Below are positions 28,698-42,583 of a DNA stretch of 45,911 nucleotides, piece by piece (position 1 is the first letter of the stretch; each line of letters opens with the position of its first letter). The stretch lies in IMG/VR virus record IMGVR_UViG_3300045988_128092. One strand, given 5' to 3'. Origin of the DNA: a virus. The notes under the pieces were generated by a model. The model searched no databases and had not been told where the DNA came from. It saw only the letters and a program-made list of their open reading frames with translations. The position numbers were made by a program, and so were the translations under genes.

Positions 28698-29084
28698 CTA
28701 TGCCTCTTTTTTTTGGGCAGCAGCTTCTGCCCCAGGTGTGATGCCTTGCATCTTCTCGATGATGGTGATCAGTCTGGATACTTCCCGATCTCGCCGTTCG
28801 AGAGCTTCAAAGAATTTCATTCTCTCCATAGTATCTAAGTTATTTGTTTCAGCTTTCGTTGGCGTGACGTCTTCGCCTCCTTGGCTGATAGGTTGGTCTT
28901 CTATGTTGGATATGCCAAAATATTGGAGTATATATCTGGCATTTGCTCTACTCGGCTTGCCTTCTCCTTTCTTCCATTTGCCGATAATTGTTTGTGACAA
29001 TCCAGTCGCTTTGGCGATCTTATACGGAGTGTCTTGTGTGCTTCGTAGTAATTCTACGGCCTTATCTATCAGTTTATCAGCCAT
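28698..29084 (-). CDS. CI-like HTH repressor (no S24 peptidase domain)
   Basis: YKIAKATGLSQTIIGKWKKGEGKPS HTH. Divergent from the early operon. Confidence 0.7.
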   Translation of the reverse strand: MADKLIDKAVELLRSTQDTPYKIAKATGLSQTIIGKWKKGEGKPSRANARYILQYFGISNIEDQPISQGGEDVTPTKAETNNLDTMERMKFFEALERRDREVSRLITIIEKMQGITPGAEAAAQKKEA

Positions 29085-29652: not shown

Positions 29653-29940
29653 ATGAATATGAATACTGCAAATCAGCGCGCTGTAAAGTCGCCGTTCCAA
29701 GAATATGTTTCTACACTTGGAAAGACTCGCAAAAGTAAGTTGTGGGCAGAAATTCGTCTTGTGACAGGAAAGGACAGGACAACAATATGGCGATGGGCGC
29801 ACGGACACACCCGTCCTGACAAGTCAGACAGGGATAACATAGCATTCTGTGTATATAAATTCTCTGAAAATAGGTTACCCGGCGACGCATTATTCCCAGA
29901 AGATTATCCATACAAAGGTACCCATGCAAAGGTTAAATAA
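29653..29940 (+). CDS. Cro-like / HTH early regulator (95 aa)
   Basis: In-frame ATG MNMNTANQ. KLWAEIRLVTGKDRTTIWRWAHGHTRP HTH. Confidence 0.55.
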   Translation: MNMNTANQRAVKSPFQEYVSTLGKTRKSKLWAEIRLVTGKDRTTIWRWAHGHTRPDKSDRDNIAFCVYKFSENRLPGDALFPEDYPYKGTHAKVK

Positions 29941-30475
29941 CGTAGAGTTTTTTAACTCACCCGAAGGAGAGGTGCAGATCCGCGATGAAAAGGGAGTGCG
30001 CACCTACATGGAAGAAGATAAAGAGCTTACGGATGCTTTGTTCTCGGTTATTGAACTGGATTACCCTAAGGCATTCAAGGCGTTGTCGGAGATTTACAAC
30101 AAGAGCAAAGCGAACGCCCCTTACTTCAAATACAGGTGTGCCCACAGATTCATCCGCTGCAACTTCGGGATGTATGATAAAATACCCGATATGGATGAGT
30201 TCGGCCGGTTCAACTTCGAGAATGTTGCTTGTCCGCTGGTGGGGGAGTGCAAATACTATAAAGTAATCTGTAACCCAGAGTTTAATACTAACCTGACAAT
30301 GCGGGAGAAAGAGATTGTCCGCCTCTATAAAGAGGGGTATAAGACTGAAAAGATTGCCGAAATACTATCACTTTCCCAGTTGACGGTCGAAACACACAAA
30401 CGAAACGCTATGCGTCGCACAGGGTCGACAACGCTTGCCGAACTCGTGATATGGGCTAACAACCACGGACTTTAA
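29924..30475 (+). CDS. LuxR/GerE-type (sigma region-4-like) transcription regulator
   Basis: C-terminal LTMREKEIVRLYKEGYKTEKIAEILSLSQLTVETHKRNAMRR. Confidence 0.7.
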   Translation: MQRLNNVEFFNSPEGEVQIRDEKGVRTYMEEDKELTDALFSVIELDYPKAFKALSEIYNKSKANAPYFKYRCAHRFIRCNFGMYDKIPDMDEFGRFNFENVACPLVGECKYYKVICNPEFNTNLTMREKEIVRLYKEGYKTEKIAEILSLSQLTVETHKRNAMRRTGSTTLAELVIWANNHGL

Positions 30476-30494
30476 ACACAAAATATAACCCACC

Positions 30495-31442
30495 ATGAAA
30501 ACAATTTATCTCTGGGTTTCAGGCAAAGGCTGGACACCCTTTCAGTACAATGAACTTTCTGAATTAGCCGCCGAATTTAAGGCGCGCAATATCAAACTGG
30601 GCAACGAGTGCGAACTGGGCGACGGGTGCAAACTGGGCTACGGGTGCGAACTGGGCGACGGGTGCAAACTGGGCTACGGGTGCGAACTGGGCAACGAGTG
30701 CGAACTGGGCAACGGGTGCAAACTGGGCGACGAGTGCGAACTGGGCGCCGAGTGCGAACTGGGCGACAGGTGCAAACTGGGCGACGGGTGCAAACTGGGC
30801 GCCGAGTGCGAACTGGGCGACAGGTGCAAACTGGGCAACGGGTGCAAACTGGGCTACGAGTGCAAACTGGGCGACGAGTGCGAACTGGGCGCCGAGTGCG
30901 AACTGGGCGACAGGTGCAAACTGGGCGACGGGTGCAAACTGGGCGCCGAGTGCGAACTGGGCGACAGGTGCAAACTGGGCAACGGGTGCAAACTGGGCTA
31001 CGAGTGCAAACTGGGCGACGAGTGCGAACTGGGCGCCGAGTGCGAACTGGGCGACAGGTGCAAACTGGGCGACGAGTGCGAACTGGGCGCCGAGTGCGAA
31101 CTGGGCGACGGGTGCAAACTGGGCTACGGGTGCGAACTGGGCAACGGGTGCAAACTGGGCTACGGGTGCGAACTGGGCAACGGGTGCAAACTGGGCGCCG
31201 GGTGCGATGTTCCGAAATCGCTATTTATCAGCGCATCTCGCCATGCAGTATCCTATTGGGGTGAGGATGTTATTCAAATAGGATGCAAACGCTACACCAT
31301 TTCCGAGTGGCAGAAGCATTTCCGAAAAATTGGCGAGGCCGAAGACTATAGTACCGAGCAGATGGAGGAATACAAAGGGTATATAGACCTGATCGCTACC
31401 ATGCATAAGACGTGGAAGGTTGAGAAGGTAAAGGACAAATAA
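30495..31442 (+). CDS. Hexapeptide-repeat (LG-x-x-C-K/E) x34 protein with unique N- and C-terminal domains
   Basis: 315-aa ORF. Residues 33-236 are 34 consecutive hexads. Confidence 0.7.
   Translation: MKTIYLWVSGKGWTPFQYNELSELAAEFKARNIKLGNECELGDGCKLGYGCELGDGCKLGYGCELGNECELGNGCKLGDECELGAECELGDRCKLGDGCKLGAECELGDRCKLGNGCKLGYECKLGDECELGAECELGDRCKLGDGCKLGAECELGDRCKLGNGCKLGYECKLGDECELGAECELGDRCKLGDECELGAECELGDGCKLGYGCELGNGCKLGYGCELGNGCKLGAGCDVPKSLFISASRHAVSYWGEDVIQIGCKRYTISEWQKHFRKIGEAEDYSTEQMEEYKGYIDLIATMHKTWKVEKVKDK
30591..31202 (+). repeat. 34 x 18-bp tandem repeat, including a perfect 144-bp higher-order duplication
   Basis: Unit TGC-RAA-CTG-GGC-NNC-GRG. 30735-30878 is identical to 30879-31022. 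Confidence 0.95.
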
Positions 31443-31449
31443 CAGCACG

Positions 31450-31562
31450 AGGTGTGTAGCTCAAAGGTAGAGCGGTGCAGGGATGCGAAATAGAAGCACA
31501 GAGGTTGAAAGACCTTGCATTTCCGGGCGCAGGTTGCAGGTTCGAATCCTGCCGCACTTCCA
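31450..31562 (+). tRNA. Aberrant 113-nt tRNA-like gene (acceptor, D and T arms intact; no canonical anticodon arm)
   Basis: Acceptor AGGTGTG/CGCACTT, D arm GCTC-AAAGGTA-GAGC, T arm GCAGG-TTCGAAT-CCTGC, encoded CCA. The central region is about 61 nt. Confidence 0.5.
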
Positions 31563-31920
31563 AGATAGCCACCGCATAGGTGAGGGGTTTGATTGCTGGC
31601 ACTAACCCCGCCGCAAGGCAAAAGCGATCCGTTAGGCCGATAATAGCGTCATCGGCGGGCCGTGGGCAAGGCTCAAAGTGATAGCCCCGCAAAAGCAAAT
31701 AGCCGAATGCGCGAAAGACTGGCATAGGCTTCGAGCTGCGATGATATGAGCGGCGAGAACCACCGGGATAAATCAAGCATTATTATGCCTGGTGTGGCTT
31801 GACCGCCTATCCAGGCTCTATGGCAGGCCTTGCGCACCGTTCTTTCAGCAGTGGGTTATTTCATTTTAGGCGTGAGGTCTGCATCTTGCCCGCGTGCGCT
31901 TTTCGGTGGCGCAGTTTTGA
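31563..31920 (+). ncRNA. Candidate structured non-coding RNA (GC-rich, hairpin-dense, no plus-strand ORF)
   Basis: Hairpins at 31584-31589/31604-31609, 31636-31641/31651-31656, 31761-31767/31788-31794, and 31895-31899/31909-31913 followed by GTTTT. Confidence 0.35.
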
Positions 31921-31981: not shown

Positions 31982-32278
31982 ATGGAGAAGAACACTTTGA
32001 GGAAGAGGAGATTTCTATGCTTCGACCTGACGCCCAGGTGGAAAATGTGGAAACGGATCGAAGACCTGGAGGTGCGGCTTGCTACATGCCTTTGCGAGCG
32101 CAATGAAGCGGATGGACGCCTTATCGAGCGGGAACACGAGGTATTGGCGCTCACTCAAGCACGTGATACCCTGTACAAGCGCATCGACGAACTGGAAGGC
32201 AGGCTCAGGAAATTCGACCGTACCCGTGGGAAAAGCGGCAAATACATCAAAGGCCATGAAACACGATCCTCAAAATAA
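31982..32278 (+). CDS. Hypothetical coiled-coil protein (98 aa)
   Basis: ATG ORF from the track. Confidence 0.5.
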   Translation: MEKNTLRKRRFLCFDLTPRWKMWKRIEDLEVRLATCLCERNEADGRLIEREHEVLALTQARDTLYKRIDELEGRLRKFDRTRGKSGKYIKGHETRSSK

Positions 32279-32489
32279 AATTCTGGCCTATCTCAAGGCC
32301 GGCGGCAGGCTGACTGTTCGCAAGGCTGAGAGGCTGTACCACACAACGGAGCTGCGCCGGATCATCAGTCGGCTCCGGAAAATGGGATATTCCATTTGCT
32401 CGAACAAACAGAGGGCCGTTACGGAAGACGGACGGCCGACACAGTTTAACGAGTACTATATGCCACAGGTAGCGGATTCCTGCCAATAA
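32256..32489 (+). CDS. Winged-helix DNA-binding protein (77 aa)
   Basis: ILAYLKAGGRLTVRKAERLYHTTELRRIISRLRKMGYSI pattern. In-frame ATG within the 32079 ORF. Confidence 0.55.
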   Translation: MKHDPQNKILAYLKAGGRLTVRKAERLYHTTELRRIISRLRKMGYSICSNKQRAVTEDGRPTQFNEYYMPQVADSCQ

Positions 32490-32614: not shown

Positions 32615-32686
32615 TGAGCTATGGTGTAATGGTTAACACACCGCCCTTTGGAGGCGGTACTCCCGGTTCGAATCCGGGTAGCTCAA
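32615..32686 (+). tRNA. tRNA-Gln (anticodon UUG)
   Basis: Full cloverleaf read by hand: TGAGCTA-TG-GTGT-AATGGTTA-ACAC-A-CCGCC-CTTTGGA-GGCGG-TACT-CCCGG-TTCGAAT-CCGGG-TAGCTCA-A. U1:A72 pair. Confidence 0.85.
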
Positions 32687-33066
32687 CGGGGTTCTAGCCC
32701 TAATGTTGTGAGTTTGATCGGGCGCTTGGGCGTCTGTCACAACGGAAGCTGACAGAGGGTATATCCCTCGACAATCCGAGGCTGCGTGAAGGAAGTAGCA
32801 AGGCCGAAACAAAGGGTATTGAATGCGAATTTTATGCGACAGATATTGAATATACATCTAATATCAAACTAAAGTGTCTTTGCGGAAAGGTATTGATAGA
32901 TCGTAATAGCGCTTGCGACGCTAACGATTCTGATGAATTAGAATGGTTGGAACAAGACTGGGATGACGAGATTATCTTTTGTGCCGATTGTGGTCGTGAA
33001 TACGAGATACAAGGTGGACGCGCCCGGTTAATTTCAAAATAATTTTGCAGATTCGGAATGAATTCC

Positions 33067-41906: not shown

Positions 41907-42080
41907 ATGACACCTAAGGAACTTTACGACTGGGCGGTCGAGAGCGACTGCGAAAATTTCGACATAAAAATACGTGCGTTCATTGATGGCTGGGGTGATA
42001 TTGCTTCCGATATTGAGGAGCTTGGAATTGTCAAAAAAGAACGACCTAAAATGATTATAATTGACATAAATAACCAATGA
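41907..42080 (+). CDS. Hypothetical (57 aa)
   Basis: Hand-translated MTPKELYDWAVESDCENFD... ATGA overlap with the next gene. Confidence 0.4.
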   Translation: MTPKELYDWAVESDCENFDIKIRAFIDGWGDIASDIEELGIVKKERPKMIIIDINNQ

Positions 42081-42583
42081 AACGAGAACTCACACTGACC
42101 GACATTGTAGGGTACCTTCCGTATAAGTTACAAATTGAATCTCAGTTTGACGGGAAAATATGCACCGCAAATATATGGAACCTACAAGGGGCCATAGTGG
42201 CGAATTTTAAGCCAATCCTTCGGCCTATGTCCGATCTGTGCGTGGAGATCACCGAGCGAGGTTACAACGACGGGAAACCGTTCGTGCCTATTCTTGAGTT
42301 GGCGAATTTATTGGGATCCCCGGCGCGGTATCAATGGATACTGAATTCAGACGGGTGTTGTGCGTTTTCTCCTGAAGCGATGGACTATTTCCGCTGGTTG
42401 GAAGAAGAAAAGTCATTTATCCATAGCTTATCGTATGGGGACTCATCTACGGGCTACGTTATATGCAACCAGCATGAAATATATGACCTGTTACACCGCC
42501 TCCACTTCGACTACCGCGGTCTGATCGACGCCGGACTGGCCGTCAGCGTTCACGATTTACCCACAAATCCCTATGAGACATGA
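42077..42583 (+). CDS. Hypothetical (168 aa)
   Basis: ORF track. Confidence 0.6.
   Translation: MKRELTLTDIVGYLPYKLQIESQFDGKICTANIWNLQGAIVANFKPILRPMSDLCVEITERGYNDGKPFVPILELANLLGSPARYQWILNSDGCCAFSPEAMDYFRWLEEEKSFIHSLSYGDSSTGYVICNQHEIYDLLHRLHFDYRGLIDAGLAVSVHDLPTNPYET

What the first reader, a model, noticed from the sequence alone, without database searches (positions are those of the whole stretch)
31450..31562. Aberrant 113-nt tRNA-like gene with intact acceptor, D and T arms and encoded CCA but no canonical anticodon arm
What the sequence shows:
- A 7-bp acceptor stem (AGGTGTG pairs with CGCACTT, including two G-U pairs).
- U8-A9, then a D arm GCTC-AAAGGTA-GAGC with the GG of the D loop.
- A T arm GCAGG-TTCGAAT-CCTGC, followed by CCA.
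- About 61 nt lie between the D and T arms, where about 22-40 nt are expected.
- That central region can fold as GTGCA...TGCAT enclosing a GAGGT-TGAAAG-ACCTT hairpin. I could not place a 7-nt anticodon loop with U33.

Inference: it is too short for a group I intron and too long for a type II tRNA. Options are an intron-containing or anticodon-arm-replaced tRNA, a tRNA mimic or decoy, or a processing or priming element. A decoy is plausible because phage tRNAs are known to counter anticodon-nuclease defences. It sits 8 nt after the repeat-protein gene stop.
Basis: partly seen in the sequence, partly recalled or inferred. Interest (0 to 1): 0.62.

Follow-up and report, generated by a model that had tools for sequence, protein, structure and literature searches.

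The report
Phage tRNA-shaped RNA carrying swappable payload
A common human-gut prophage encodes an RNA that keeps the whole body of a tRNA but has a conserved folded rod instead of an anticodon loop, and near-identical phages carry unrelated inserts in the same tRNA frame, so it looks like a natural "tRNA scaffold" for interchangeable RNA payloads rather than a decoding tRNA.

Summary
Window 31450-31560 (+) matches the Rfam tRNA model at 43.5 bits (threshold 29), with about 48 nt where the anticodon loop should be.

**Not an intron-bearing tRNA.** ARAGORN's intron mode calls tRNA-Gly(UCC). It also calls a "tRNA with intron" in 200 of 200 versions with a shuffled insert, and one close variant flips to Glu. 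CCA is not properly encoded: most relatives read N73-CAA.

**The insert is a conserved module.**
- A 4-bp stem, then an A/GR hinge.
- An 8-bp helix with a bulged U.
- A 14-17-nt purine-rich bulge.
- A short hairpin always capped by U-GNRA-N.

It occurs in seven tRNA bodies whose acceptor and T stems differ by compensatory changes.

**The site is a polymorphic slot.** Among 57 related phage loci it holds:

| Content | Loci |
|---|---|
| This module | 38 |
| Four other, unrelated inserts in a tRNA-shaped frame (three in the same frame) | 14 |
| An ordinary tRNA-Arg | 1 |
| A protein gene | 3 |
| No upstream DNA held | 1 |

Flanks are 93-99% identical across one such swap.

**Best reading (0.55):** a non-decoding, tRNA-framed payload RNA made early in infection. 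The tRNA frame gives processing and stability. The payload's target is unknown.

I found no Ro60, RT or RtcB gene and no CRISPR-repeat match. The scan has found this class before on other DNA. The tool for finding RNA sequencing runs was closed.

The parts
31450..31456 (+). Acceptor stem, 5' strand (AGGUGUG)
   Evidence: It pairs with 31553-31559. 5 of the 7 pairs show compensatory double changes across relatives. Rfam tRNA alignment.
31457..31474 (+). U8-A9, D arm (GCUC / AAAGGUA / GAGC) and G26
   Evidence: G18 G19, A14 and A21 are present. Position 15 with position 48 reads A-U in 19, G-U in 5 and G-C in 2 of 26 family sequences, which fits a Levitt pair.
31475..31478 (+). Anticodon-stem remnant, 5' strand (GUGC)
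   Evidence: Infernal aligns it to tRNA positions 27-30, paired with 31527-31530. It is invariant in the family.
31479..31479 (+). Hinge, 5' side (A), opposite GG at 31525-31526
   Evidence: A 1x2 internal loop: A/GG in 19 and A/GA in 7 distinct sequences. The same hinge occurs in an unrelated phage tRNA-like RNA, L090.
31480..31487 (+). Payload helix P2, 5' strand (GGGAUGCG)
   Evidence: It pairs with 31516-31524, with U31520 or U31521 bulged. G-U alternates with A-U at one pair. The closing pair reads G-C in 10, G-U in 1 and A-U in 1.
31488..31501 (+). Purine-rich bulge (AAAUAGAAGCACAG), 14-17 nt in relatives
   Evidence: The 5' part (AAAnAGA) is conserved; the 3' part varies in sequence and length. 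No complementary site exists in the phage.
31502..31515 (+). Payload hairpin P3 (AGGU / UGAAAG / ACCU)
   Evidence: The stem covaries (A-U to G-C in 3 sequences). The loop is always U-GNRA-N: GAAA, GGAA, GAGA or GCGA.
31516..31524 (+). P2, 3' strand (UGCAUUUCC)
   Evidence: It contains the UUUCC that ARAGORN -i misreads as an anticodon loop.
31525..31530 (+). Hinge 3' side (GG) and anticodon-stem remnant 3' strand (GCGC)
31531..31552 (+). Variable loop AGGUU and T arm (GCAGG / UUCGAAU / CCUGC)
   Evidence: 3 of the 5 T-stem pairs show compensatory change. This part, together with the 3' acceptor strand, is shared by alternative inserts 2, 3 and 4 at the slot.
31553..31560 (+). Acceptor stem 3' strand (CGCACUU) and discriminator C73
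   Evidence: The discriminator varies in relatives (C, A, U, G).
31561..31563 (+). 3' trailer CAA (not an encoded CCA)
   Evidence: The trailer after the discriminator is CAA in 22 of 26 distinct family sequences.
30495..31442 (+). Left border of the slot: hexapeptide-repeat (beta-helix) protein gene. Context only, not part of the RNA
   Evidence: Pfam Hexapep, 1.7e-51. The element starts 7 nt after its stop codon.
31567..31628 (+). Right border of the slot: flank shared by the insert-2, insert-4 and protein-gene alleles checked (begins AGCCACC)
   Evidence: 98% identical in loci whose slot holds a protein gene instead. 99% identical over 300 nt in L316, which carries insert 2, and 87% in L304, which carries insert 4.

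Best explanation
This is a gene for a non-decoding, tRNA-framed RNA of about 111 nt. It is transcribed as part of the phage's early rightward operon.

**Frame.** The acceptor stem, D arm, T arm and variable loop form a normal class I tRNA core. This should make the transcript a substrate for RNase P at the 5' end. At the 3' end it should be a substrate for RNase Z or exonucleases, followed by the CCA-adding enzyme. It should also give the RNA tRNA-like stability.

**Payload.** The anticodon loop is replaced by a conserved rod about 16-17 bp long. It consists of a 4-bp stem remnant, an A/GR hinge, an 8-bp helix with a bulged U, a 14-17-nt purine-rich bulge, and a 4-5-bp hairpin capped by a GNRA tetraloop. 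This rod is the working part. It most likely acts as a docking surface for a host or phage macromolecule early in infection.

**Slot.** The site holds different payloads in the same frame in near-identical phages. That pattern is typical of accessory or arms-race loci such as counter-defence or host takeover.

**Shown:** the tRNA frame, the module's structure and conservation, the absence of a usable anticodon, and the allelic exchange.
**Inferred:** expression, processing, stability, and any binding partner or counter-defence role.
For: - Rfam tRNA scores 43.5 bits, with 48 nt in place of the 9 central model positions.
- Default ARAGORN does not call the element.
- In the window sequence the bases at the standard tertiary positions (U8, A9 with U12-A23, G10-C25 with G45, C13-G22 with G46, G18 G19, U54 U55 C56, G26/A44) are the usual ones. 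This is my reading against textbook tRNA numbering.
- The structure holds in 97% of pair cells, against 37-57% when partners are slid. 10 pairs have double changes, and 0 of 500 shuffles reach this.
- The same module sits in 7 different tRNA bodies.
- A search that required only the stem and hinge returned only this module.
- Every hairpin loop is U-GNRA-N, while the stem below it covaries.
- Slot tally in 57 related loci: 38 module A, 7 insert 2, 5 insert 4, 1 insert 3, 1 insert 5, 1 tRNA-Arg(ACG), 3 a 137-aa protein gene, 1 with no upstream DNA held.
- L316 and the window are 93% and 99% identical over 300 nt on either side. Inside the element they share only about the first 10 and the last 26 nt.
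- In 8 chromosome-sized contigs, 4 carry module A and 4 carry insert 2.
- Architecture matches the engineered tRNA scaffold, in which an insert replaces the anticodon stem-loop.
Against: - I have no expression data. A stable processed RNA is therefore inferred, not shown.
- The fold is not thermodynamically unusual (z = -0.27 against shuffles).
- Most of the module's helix never varies (9 of 11 pairs), so covariation support for it is thin. It rests on one G-U/A-U pair and one closing pair.
- No partner was found. No protein gene is consistently adjacent across the body types, apart from synteny with a small HTH_39 gene.
- Nothing links the module to any known defence system.
- The family comes from closely related gut phages, so part of the conservation may be shared ancestry.
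Confidence: 0.55

Rival explanations
1. Body decoy. The active part is the tRNA body (acceptor, elbow, 3' end). It soaks up a host toxin or defence protein that binds or modifies tRNAs. The insert only prevents the RNA from entering translation.
For: - The frame (T arm plus acceptor) is the constant part across insert alleles 2, 3 and 4 at this slot.
- The core tertiary positions are kept.
- An ordinary tRNA-Arg can occupy the same slot.
- Phage tRNAs are known to counter tRNA-targeting defences. The preprint 10.1101/2023.03.15.532788, listed, reports this for T5 tRNA-Tyr and a retron.
Against: - A mere plug would not need a conserved sequence, a covarying hairpin and an invariant GNRA cap kept across 7 diverged bodies.
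- Inserts of 105-165 nt are hard to explain as plugs.
- The bodies differ in acceptor stem and discriminator, so they do not copy one host tRNA.
- No tRNA in 41 genomes searched (25 of the nearest genus) shares more than the T arm.
Confidence: 0.17
2. Cis-acting element of the early transcript. The tRNA shape serves as an RNase P/Z cutting site that separates upstream and downstream mRNAs ('tRNA punctuation'). Alternatively, the GNRA-capped hairpin acts on the transcribing polymerase, in the way a nut or put site does.
For: - It lies inside the early operon, 7 nt after a stop codon.
- In one body type it follows the divergent control region by about 360 nt.
- No promoter or terminator of its own was detected, but the scan does not cover Bacteroidota promoters.
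- GNRA-like hairpins bind antiterminators in lambdoid phages (my own knowledge).
Against: - Punctuation needs only the acceptor and T arms and would not conserve the payload.
- The element's position relative to neighbouring genes differs between body types: before or after the repeat-protein gene, before or after the HTH_39 gene.
- A protein gene can replace it.
Confidence: 0.08
3. Decoding tRNA with a new kind of short intron. Removing about 41 nt would leave a tRNA-Gly(UCC) or tRNA-Glu(UUC) that serves phage translation.
For: - ARAGORN in intron mode reports tRNA-Gly(UCC) with a 41-nt intron.
- UUUCC is conserved in the family.
- The phage carries a normal tRNA-Gln 1 kb downstream, and a relative has tRNA-Arg in this slot.
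Against: - The ARAGORN call has no weight. 200 of 200 shuffled-insert controls are also called, with random anticodons.
- The solution has only 4 standard stem pairs plus a G.A mismatch, leaves no nucleotide for position 26, and places the intron at the stem/loop junction rather than at 37/38. Its loop is UUUCCGG. My own best manual alternative gives a loop with C37.
- A variant in near-identical phages flips the call to Glu.
- UUUCC is explained by pairing with GGRA.
- The phage has no RtcB, and no Rfam intron or ribozyme matches.
- The other inserts in the same frame give other arbitrary 'anticodons'.
Confidence: 0.06
4. Decayed tRNA gene or recombination scar with no function of its own, carried along in a highly recombining accessory region.
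For: - The region is mosaic. One relative keeps only the 5' half (L020).
- Some copies have acceptor-stem mismatches (L015, L228).
- 3 of 57 loci have a protein gene instead.
- Folding energy is ordinary.
Against: - Compensatory changes keep the acceptor, T and payload stems paired in diverged copies.
- The GNRA cap is invariant across 9 different loop sequences.
- The exact window sequence recurs in 40 fetched loci.
- Both main alleles are common in chromosome-sized contigs.
Confidence: 0.05

Closest known systems
Engineered tRNA scaffold for recombinant RNA
   Same: The acceptor, D and T arms are kept. The anticodon stem is extended and the loop is replaced by a foreign structured RNA. In the engineered case the chimera is processed and stabilised like a tRNA.
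   Different: This one is natural and phage-encoded. Its payloads are conserved and swapped between phages. Processing and stability are inferred here, not measured.
YrlA-type bacterial and phage Y RNAs (Chen et al. 2014, PMC4201824)
   Same: A non-decoding RNA with a tRNA-like module joined to a second functional module. These RNAs are modified and cut by tRNA enzymes, and they occur in phages.
   Different: YrlA has its ends in the Ro-binding helix, is encoded next to a TROVE gene, and carries GNCGAAN0-1G. Here the ends lie in the acceptor stem and no TROVE gene is present. No Rfam match other than tRNA carries any weight.
Phage T4 species 1 and species 2 stable RNAs (rnaC, rnaD) in the T4 tRNA cluster (my own knowledge, not checked here)
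   Same: Phage-encoded stable RNAs longer than tRNAs. They are made and processed along with tRNAs, and their function has long been unknown.
   Different: T4's RNAs are not known to be allelic cassettes.
Archaeal pre-tRNA-Trp intron that encodes a box C/D guide RNA (my own knowledge)
   Same: A tRNA gene hosts a separate functional RNA at the anticodon loop.
   Different: There the insert is a true intron at 37/38, flanked by a bulge-helix-bulge motif and removed by the splicing endonuclease, leaving a working tRNA. Here there is no bulge-helix-bulge motif, no splicing machinery and no usable anticodon.
Bacterial tRNA genes with group I introns (for example tRNA-Leu(UAA))
   Same: Extra sequence in the anticodon region of a bacterial-type tRNA gene.
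   Different: Group I introns are roughly 200 nt or longer, have P1-P9 and are found by Rfam models. This insert is 41-48 nt and matches none.
tmRNA tRNA-like domain
   Same: An acceptor and T arm joined to a long helix in place of an anticodon arm.
   Different: tmRNA lacks a D stem and carries a reading frame and pseudoknots. ARAGORN's tmRNA mode finds nothing here.

Membership tests
Canonical elongator tRNA (Rfam RF00005) | Score at or above the curated gathering score | tested here: met
   43.5 bits against 29, E 4.4e-06, full-length match 1-71.
Canonical elongator tRNA (Rfam RF00005) | 7-bp acceptor stem, D arm with G18 G19, T arm with UUCRANY loop, 4-5-nt variable loop | tested here: met
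   Stems are kept by compensatory changes.
Canonical elongator tRNA (Rfam RF00005) | 5-bp anticodon stem closing a 7-nt loop with U33, an anticodon, and a purine at position 37 | tested here: not met
   Only 4 bp of the stem remain, and 48 nt replace the loop. Default ARAGORN makes no call. No 7-nt loop exists in the supported fold.
Intron-containing tRNA (any kind) | Removing one contiguous insert yields a standard anticodon arm with a consistent anticodon | tested here: not met
   The ARAGORN -i solution is non-standard. It is reproduced in 200 of 200 shuffled controls, and it changes from Gly to Glu between close variants.
Group I intron in tRNA | Intron of roughly 200 nt or more with the group I core, detectable by Rfam | tested here: not met
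   The insert is 41-48 nt. There is no Rfam match up to E = 10.
Bulge-helix-bulge (archaeal/eukaryal) tRNA intron | Two 3-nt bulges separated by a 4-bp helix, with the intron at 37/38 | tested here: not met
   In the supported fold the bulges are 1 nt (A31479, one U) plus a 2-nt GG, and there is no 37/38 position. I read this by eye.
YrlA / bacterial Y RNA | Encoded near a Ro60 (TROVE) gene | tested here: not met
   PF05731 is absent from the complete near-identical phage and from 63 genomes of the nearest genus.
YrlA / bacterial Y RNA | GNCGAAN0-1G motif near the 5' end, with the RNA ends forming the Ro-binding helix | tested here: not met
   The module has UGCGAAAUAG, a partial match only. 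The RNA ends lie in the acceptor stem.
tmRNA | tRNA-like domain plus a tag reading frame | tested here: not met
   ARAGORN with -m reports 0 tmRNA genes.
RNA anti-CRISPR (solitary repeat mimic) | Sequence match to a CRISPR repeat of the host | tested here: not met
   The only Rfam CRISPR match is E = 7.4, and that family is absent from 63 genomes of the nearest genus. The two module halves give only scattered single hits with 1-2 mismatches and no arrays.
Natural 'tRNA scaffold' class of phage RNAs (named by this scan, not a published family) | Intact acceptor, D and T arms with a structured insert replacing the anticodon loop, and different inserts in the same frame | tested here: met
   Many other phage contigs show long tRNA-like genes of other insert types.
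Phage T4 species 1/2 RNA | Sequence or structural similarity to rnaC or rnaD | not tested
   No sequence was at hand. A blastn of the element against 50,697 phage records found nothing.

The most novel reading that the evidence does not exclude
Gut prophages keep a dedicated slot for interchangeable effector RNAs. Each is packaged in a tRNA frame that serves two purposes: a signal for processing and stability, and short conserved ends across which payloads are swapped by recombination. The payloads would be RNA-based counter-defence or host-takeover agents, each aimed at a different host factor. That would be an RNA counterpart of the anti-defence protein islands of phages.
Probability: 0.3. 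Interest if true: 0.85.

Novelty: new variant of a known kind. Interest (0 to 1): 0.66.

Why it matters
tRNA look-alikes outside translation are known (Y RNAs, tmRNA, T4's unexplained stable RNAs). A phage locus that exchanges unrelated structured RNAs inside one constant tRNA frame has not, as far as I could find, been described.

The phage group is very common in human gut metagenomes. Its neighbouring HTH_39 gene is indexed in 4051 blocks of the assembly collection, and the two main alleles split 4 to 4 in long contigs.

If the payloads bind host factors, this would be a new class of phage effector RNA, and a natural precedent for the tRNA scaffold used in RNA engineering. The idea is directly testable, because natural alleles with identical flanks already exist.

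For annotation, it shows that intron-mode tRNA scanners will mislabel such genes as intron-bearing tRNAs with arbitrary anticodons.

Tried and rejected
1. **Intron reading.** ARAGORN -i gives Gly(UCC). I rejected it after the shuffle control (200 of 200) and the Gly/Glu flip.
2. **Known RNA families.** Rfam, at both gathering and permissive thresholds, finds nothing but tRNA for this element and nothing for inserts 3 and 4.
3. **Ro60/Y RNA.** No TROVE gene in the phage or in the nearest genus. The YrlA motif matches only in part.
4. **Splicing, repair or priming enzymes.** The phage has no RtcB and no reverse transcriptase.
5. **RNA anti-CRISPR or a host counterpart.** CRISPR-DR54 is absent from the nearest genus. 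The module halves give only chance-like hits. The whole-module pattern gave 27 hits in 185,579 species genomes, none in a tRNA context.
6. **Antisense target of the purine-rich bulge.** None in the phage with up to 3 mismatches.
7. **Isolated phages.** No blastn match in 50,697 records.
8. **Constant protein partner.** Neighbours differ between body types. Only an HTH_39 gene recurs, and it looks like a DNA binder kept by synteny.
9. **Clue from the protein gene that replaces the RNA in 3 loci.** No Pfam or PHROG family. It has 790 unnamed homologues. The AlphaFold model is confident (pLDDT 93.7). There is no PDB sequence match or fold match (best E 0.049, TM below 0.3). Dead end.
10. **His identity (G-1:C73).** Present in some bodies and absent in others.
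11. **Literature.** Four searches found no description of this class. One further search failed on a term that was too short.
13. **Resemblances recalled from memory.** Short sequence likenesses to the 23S GTPase-associated centre, SRP RNA, the hairpin ribozyme and the pistol ribozyme were considered. I dropped them because they are limited to 6-8 nt and are absent from the other body types.
Full report
**1. What is there**

The window is essentially a complete temperate phage genome. A 45,912-bp IMG/VR record with direct terminal repeats matches the region at 98%. An integrase gene lies at 224-1348.

The finding lies in the rightward early operon. Gene order there:
- an HTH_3 repressor-like gene on the minus strand (28698-29084);
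- a GerE/LuxR-type regulator (29849-30475);
- a hexapeptide-repeat protein (30495-31442);
- the element (31450-31560);
- about 420 nt without a plus-strand ORF;
- a coiled-coil ORF;
- a 77-aa HTH_39 protein (32256-32489);
- a normal tRNA-Gln(UUG) (32615-32687);
- ERF, SSB and NinG.

**2. Checking the observation**

Rfam's tRNA model matches 31450-31560 end to end at 43.5 bits (gathering score 29). 48 nt stand where 9 central model positions are expected. Default ARAGORN does not call it.

By my reading against textbook tRNA numbering, the bases at the usual tertiary positions are all standard.

Two details are wrong.
- The 'CCA' is C73-C-A followed by A. With a discriminator counted, the trailer reads CAA. 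22 of 26 distinct family sequences read N-CAA and only 3 read N-CCA.

**3. Is it a tRNA with a short intron?**

ARAGORN -i does so nominally: tRNA-Gly(UCC) with a 41-nt intron. I do not accept this call, for these reasons:
- The solution has only 4 standard stem pairs plus a G.A mismatch, and no nucleotide for position 26.
- The intron sits at the stem/loop junction.
- The loop is UUUCCGG.
- I shuffled the 48 central bases 200 times, and ARAGORN -i still called a 'tRNA with intron' in all 200, with anticodons scattered over many amino acids. The call therefore carries no information.
- A one-base variant found in seven fetched loci of this phage group flips the call to Glu(UUC).
- The unrelated inserts found in the same frame yield Thr, Phe, Arg and Asp 'anticodons'.
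- UUUCC is accounted for by pairing with GGRA.
- No Rfam intron or ribozyme family matches, and the phage has no RtcB.

**4. The family and its structure**

Searches and yields:
- An exact 27-mer from the element occurs in 39 IMG/VR contigs.
- A pattern spanning the insert recovered 39 viral stretches and 103 metagenome stretches, mostly human gut.
- After requiring a T loop downstream, 26 distinct sequences remained. The window's exact sequence occurs in 40 fetched loci.
- The same pattern in 185,579 species genomes gave 27 hits. None lies in a tRNA context, so all look like chance.

The 26 sequences fall into seven tRNA bodies that differ in most acceptor pairs and in some T-stem pairs.

On a 13-sequence alignment:

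| Measure | The structure | Partners slid by 1-3 columns |
|---|---|---|
| Pair cells forming a standard pair | 97.0% | 36.5-56.9% |
| Pairs with changes on both sides | 10 | 1-3 |

In 500 column shuffles, none reached the observed values for cells paired, pairs or cells with a change on both sides, or the covariation score.

The supported fold of the centre, from the D arm outward:
1. GUGC/GCGC, the first four pairs of a normal anticodon stem. It is invariant.
2. A 1x2 hinge, A opposite GG or GA.
3. P2, GGRAUGCR paired with YGCA(U)UUCC. One pair alternates G-U (8) with A-U (5). The closing pair reads G-C (10), G-U (1) or A-U (1).
4. A 14-17-nt purine-rich bulge on the 5' side only.
5. P3, 4-5 bp with covarying pairs, capped by a hexaloop that is always U-GNRA-N. 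Nine different loop sequences occur, containing GAAA, GGAA, GAGA or GCGA.

Caveats:
- 9 of the 11 pairs in the stem and P2 never vary, so they say nothing either way.
- The search pattern itself demanded part of that sequence. A second search that demanded only the stem and hinge, and left the interior free, returned the same family and nothing else. The module therefore does travel as a unit.
- The fold is not unusually stable (z = -0.27).

**5. The slot**

I fetched 57 related phage loci through the neighbouring HTH_39 protein. I then scanned them with a covariance model of the family and by eye. The site just after the repeat-protein gene holds:

| Content of the slot | Loci | Examples |
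|---|---|---|
| Module A (this finding) | 38 | window |
| Insert 2: about 70 nt, RNA of 120 nt | 7 | L316, L283 |
| Insert 4: about 145 nt on a long stalk, RNA of 208 nt | 5 | L304 |
| Insert 3: about 105 nt | 1 | L323 |
| Insert 5: a tRNA-shaped RNA with a different acceptor and T arm | 1 | L325 |
| Ordinary tRNA-Arg(ACG) | 1 | L314 |
| A 137-aa protein gene | 3 | L294, L296, L306 |
| No upstream DNA held | 1 | L320 |

- Inserts 2, 3 and 4 share with module A the T arm and 3' acceptor strand, GCAGGUUCGAAUCCUGCCGCAC(U/C)(U/C)C, and a matching 5' acceptor strand. Their D arms and centres are unrelated.
- L316 and the window are 93% and 99% identical over 300 nt on the two sides. Inside the element they share only about the first 10 and the last 26 nt.
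- In eight contigs of 0.2-3.1 Mb, which represent the prophage state, four carry module A and four carry insert 2.
- The flank starting AGCCACC at 31567 is also shared by the protein-gene allele.

So this is an allelic cassette site, and the tRNA ends are the constant part.

**6. The wider class**

Apart from this family and a few tandem tRNAs, these are other long tRNA-shaped genes with other centres, sometimes several in a row. One of them, L090, has the same 4-bp stem and A/GG hinge leading into a different long helix.

Earlier notes of this scan describe the same class in other phages. One of them suggested the 'scaffold with variable cargo' reading, which I then tested here through the allele comparison. 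I found no paper describing it.

**7. How it most likely works**

- Shown: a canonical tRNA frame without an anticodon; a conserved, structured payload; exchange of payloads in one frame; a location in the early operon.
- Inferred from established tRNA biology: the frame should direct RNase P cleavage at 31450. It should also direct 3' trimming and CCA addition by host enzymes, as for the CCA-less tRNA-Gln of the same phage and for CCA-less T4 tRNAs. It should protect the RNA from decay, which is what the engineered tRNA scaffold exploits.
- Inferred from anatomy: a GNRA loop and an exposed purine-rich bulge on a rigid rod are typical docking elements. The near-invariant hinge and P2 suggest sequence-specific recognition.
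- Inferred from population pattern: alternative payloads, a protein-gene allele, a neighbouring hypervariable repeat gene and mosaic breakpoints (L020; the near-identical phage record diverges after 31628) fit an accessory, arms-race locus.

I therefore favour a payload RNA that binds a host or phage factor early in infection (0.55). A counter-defence role is the most attractive version but remains unproven.

**8. What I could not link it to**

- Ro60.
- Reverse transcription.
- RNA ligation.
- CRISPR repeats of the nearest genus.
- Any antisense target in the phage.
- Any isolated phage.
- Any constant neighbouring protein.

The protein that replaces the RNA in three loci folds confidently but resembles nothing solved.

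**9. Verdict**

The element is real and conserved. It is not an ordinary or intron-bearing tRNA, and it is not a known RNA family. It is a member of an apparently undescribed class of phage tRNA-framed RNAs. Here it is documented as one allele of a polymorphic payload slot in a very common human-gut prophage group. Its function remains unknown, and the tests that would settle it are simple.

Noticed in passing
L323:5537-5632, L320:2218-2313, L306:6967-7062: Relatives of this phage carry a second, different 96-nt tRNA-shaped gene. Its anticodon arm is a long closed rod (z = -3.3 against shuffles). ARAGORN labels it 'tRNA-???'. The window itself lacks it.
   Followed up: partly
L296:2866-3279 (also L294, L306): A 137-aa protein gene sits in the slot in place of the RNA. 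It has 790 unnamed homologues, a confident beta-rich AlphaFold model (pLDDT 93.7), and no Pfam, PHROG, PDB-sequence or PDB-fold match.
   Followed up: yes
window 31567-31628 and beyond to about 31980: Just after the element lie two hairpins: CACC-loop-GGUG, whose loop varies between alleles, and GGGGUU...AACCCC. The flank carrying them is 87-99% identical in the alleles compared. The near-identical phage record diverges from the window at 31629. This is part of a 420-nt stretch without a plus-strand ORF that another reader flagged.
   Followed up: no
L296:4361-4446: One relative has an extra tRNA, called tRNA-Ser with anticodon ACU, between the HTH_39 gene and tRNA-Gln. That is an unusual anticodon for Ser.
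   Followed up: no
L067:4649-5198; L085:3367-3463; L090:4874-4974: Unrelated phage contigs hold other long tRNA-shaped genes. L067 has three in tandem, each about 117 nt. L085 has an anticodon stem extended to about 17 bp that still ends in a 7-nt loop. L090 has the same A/GG hinge as this element.
   Followed up: partly
window 31300-31415 compared with about 42077-42583: The last 116 nt of the repeat-protein gene recur at 96% identity about 12 kb downstream in the near-identical phage record (its positions 42226-42341). This points to a paralogue that shares the conserved C-terminal domain.
   Followed up: no
L132:2178-3308: A 376-aa ORF that looks to me like an IS200/IS605-type TnpB lies 1.2 kb upstream of the element in body type B. 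I judged this from the N-terminal sequence only and did not test it.
   Followed up: no
window 31982-32278 and 32256-32489: The coiled-coil ORF and the HTH_39 gene overlap by 23 nt. The 136-aa ORF listed from a TTG at 32079 is probably an over-extension of the 77-aa HTH_39 gene, which starts at the ATG at 32256.
   Followed up: partly
L020:905-960: One relative keeps only the 5' half of the element, up to GAAAUAGAAG inside the payload bulge. Unrelated DNA with other genes follows. This is a recombination breakpoint inside the RNA gene.
   Followed up: partly
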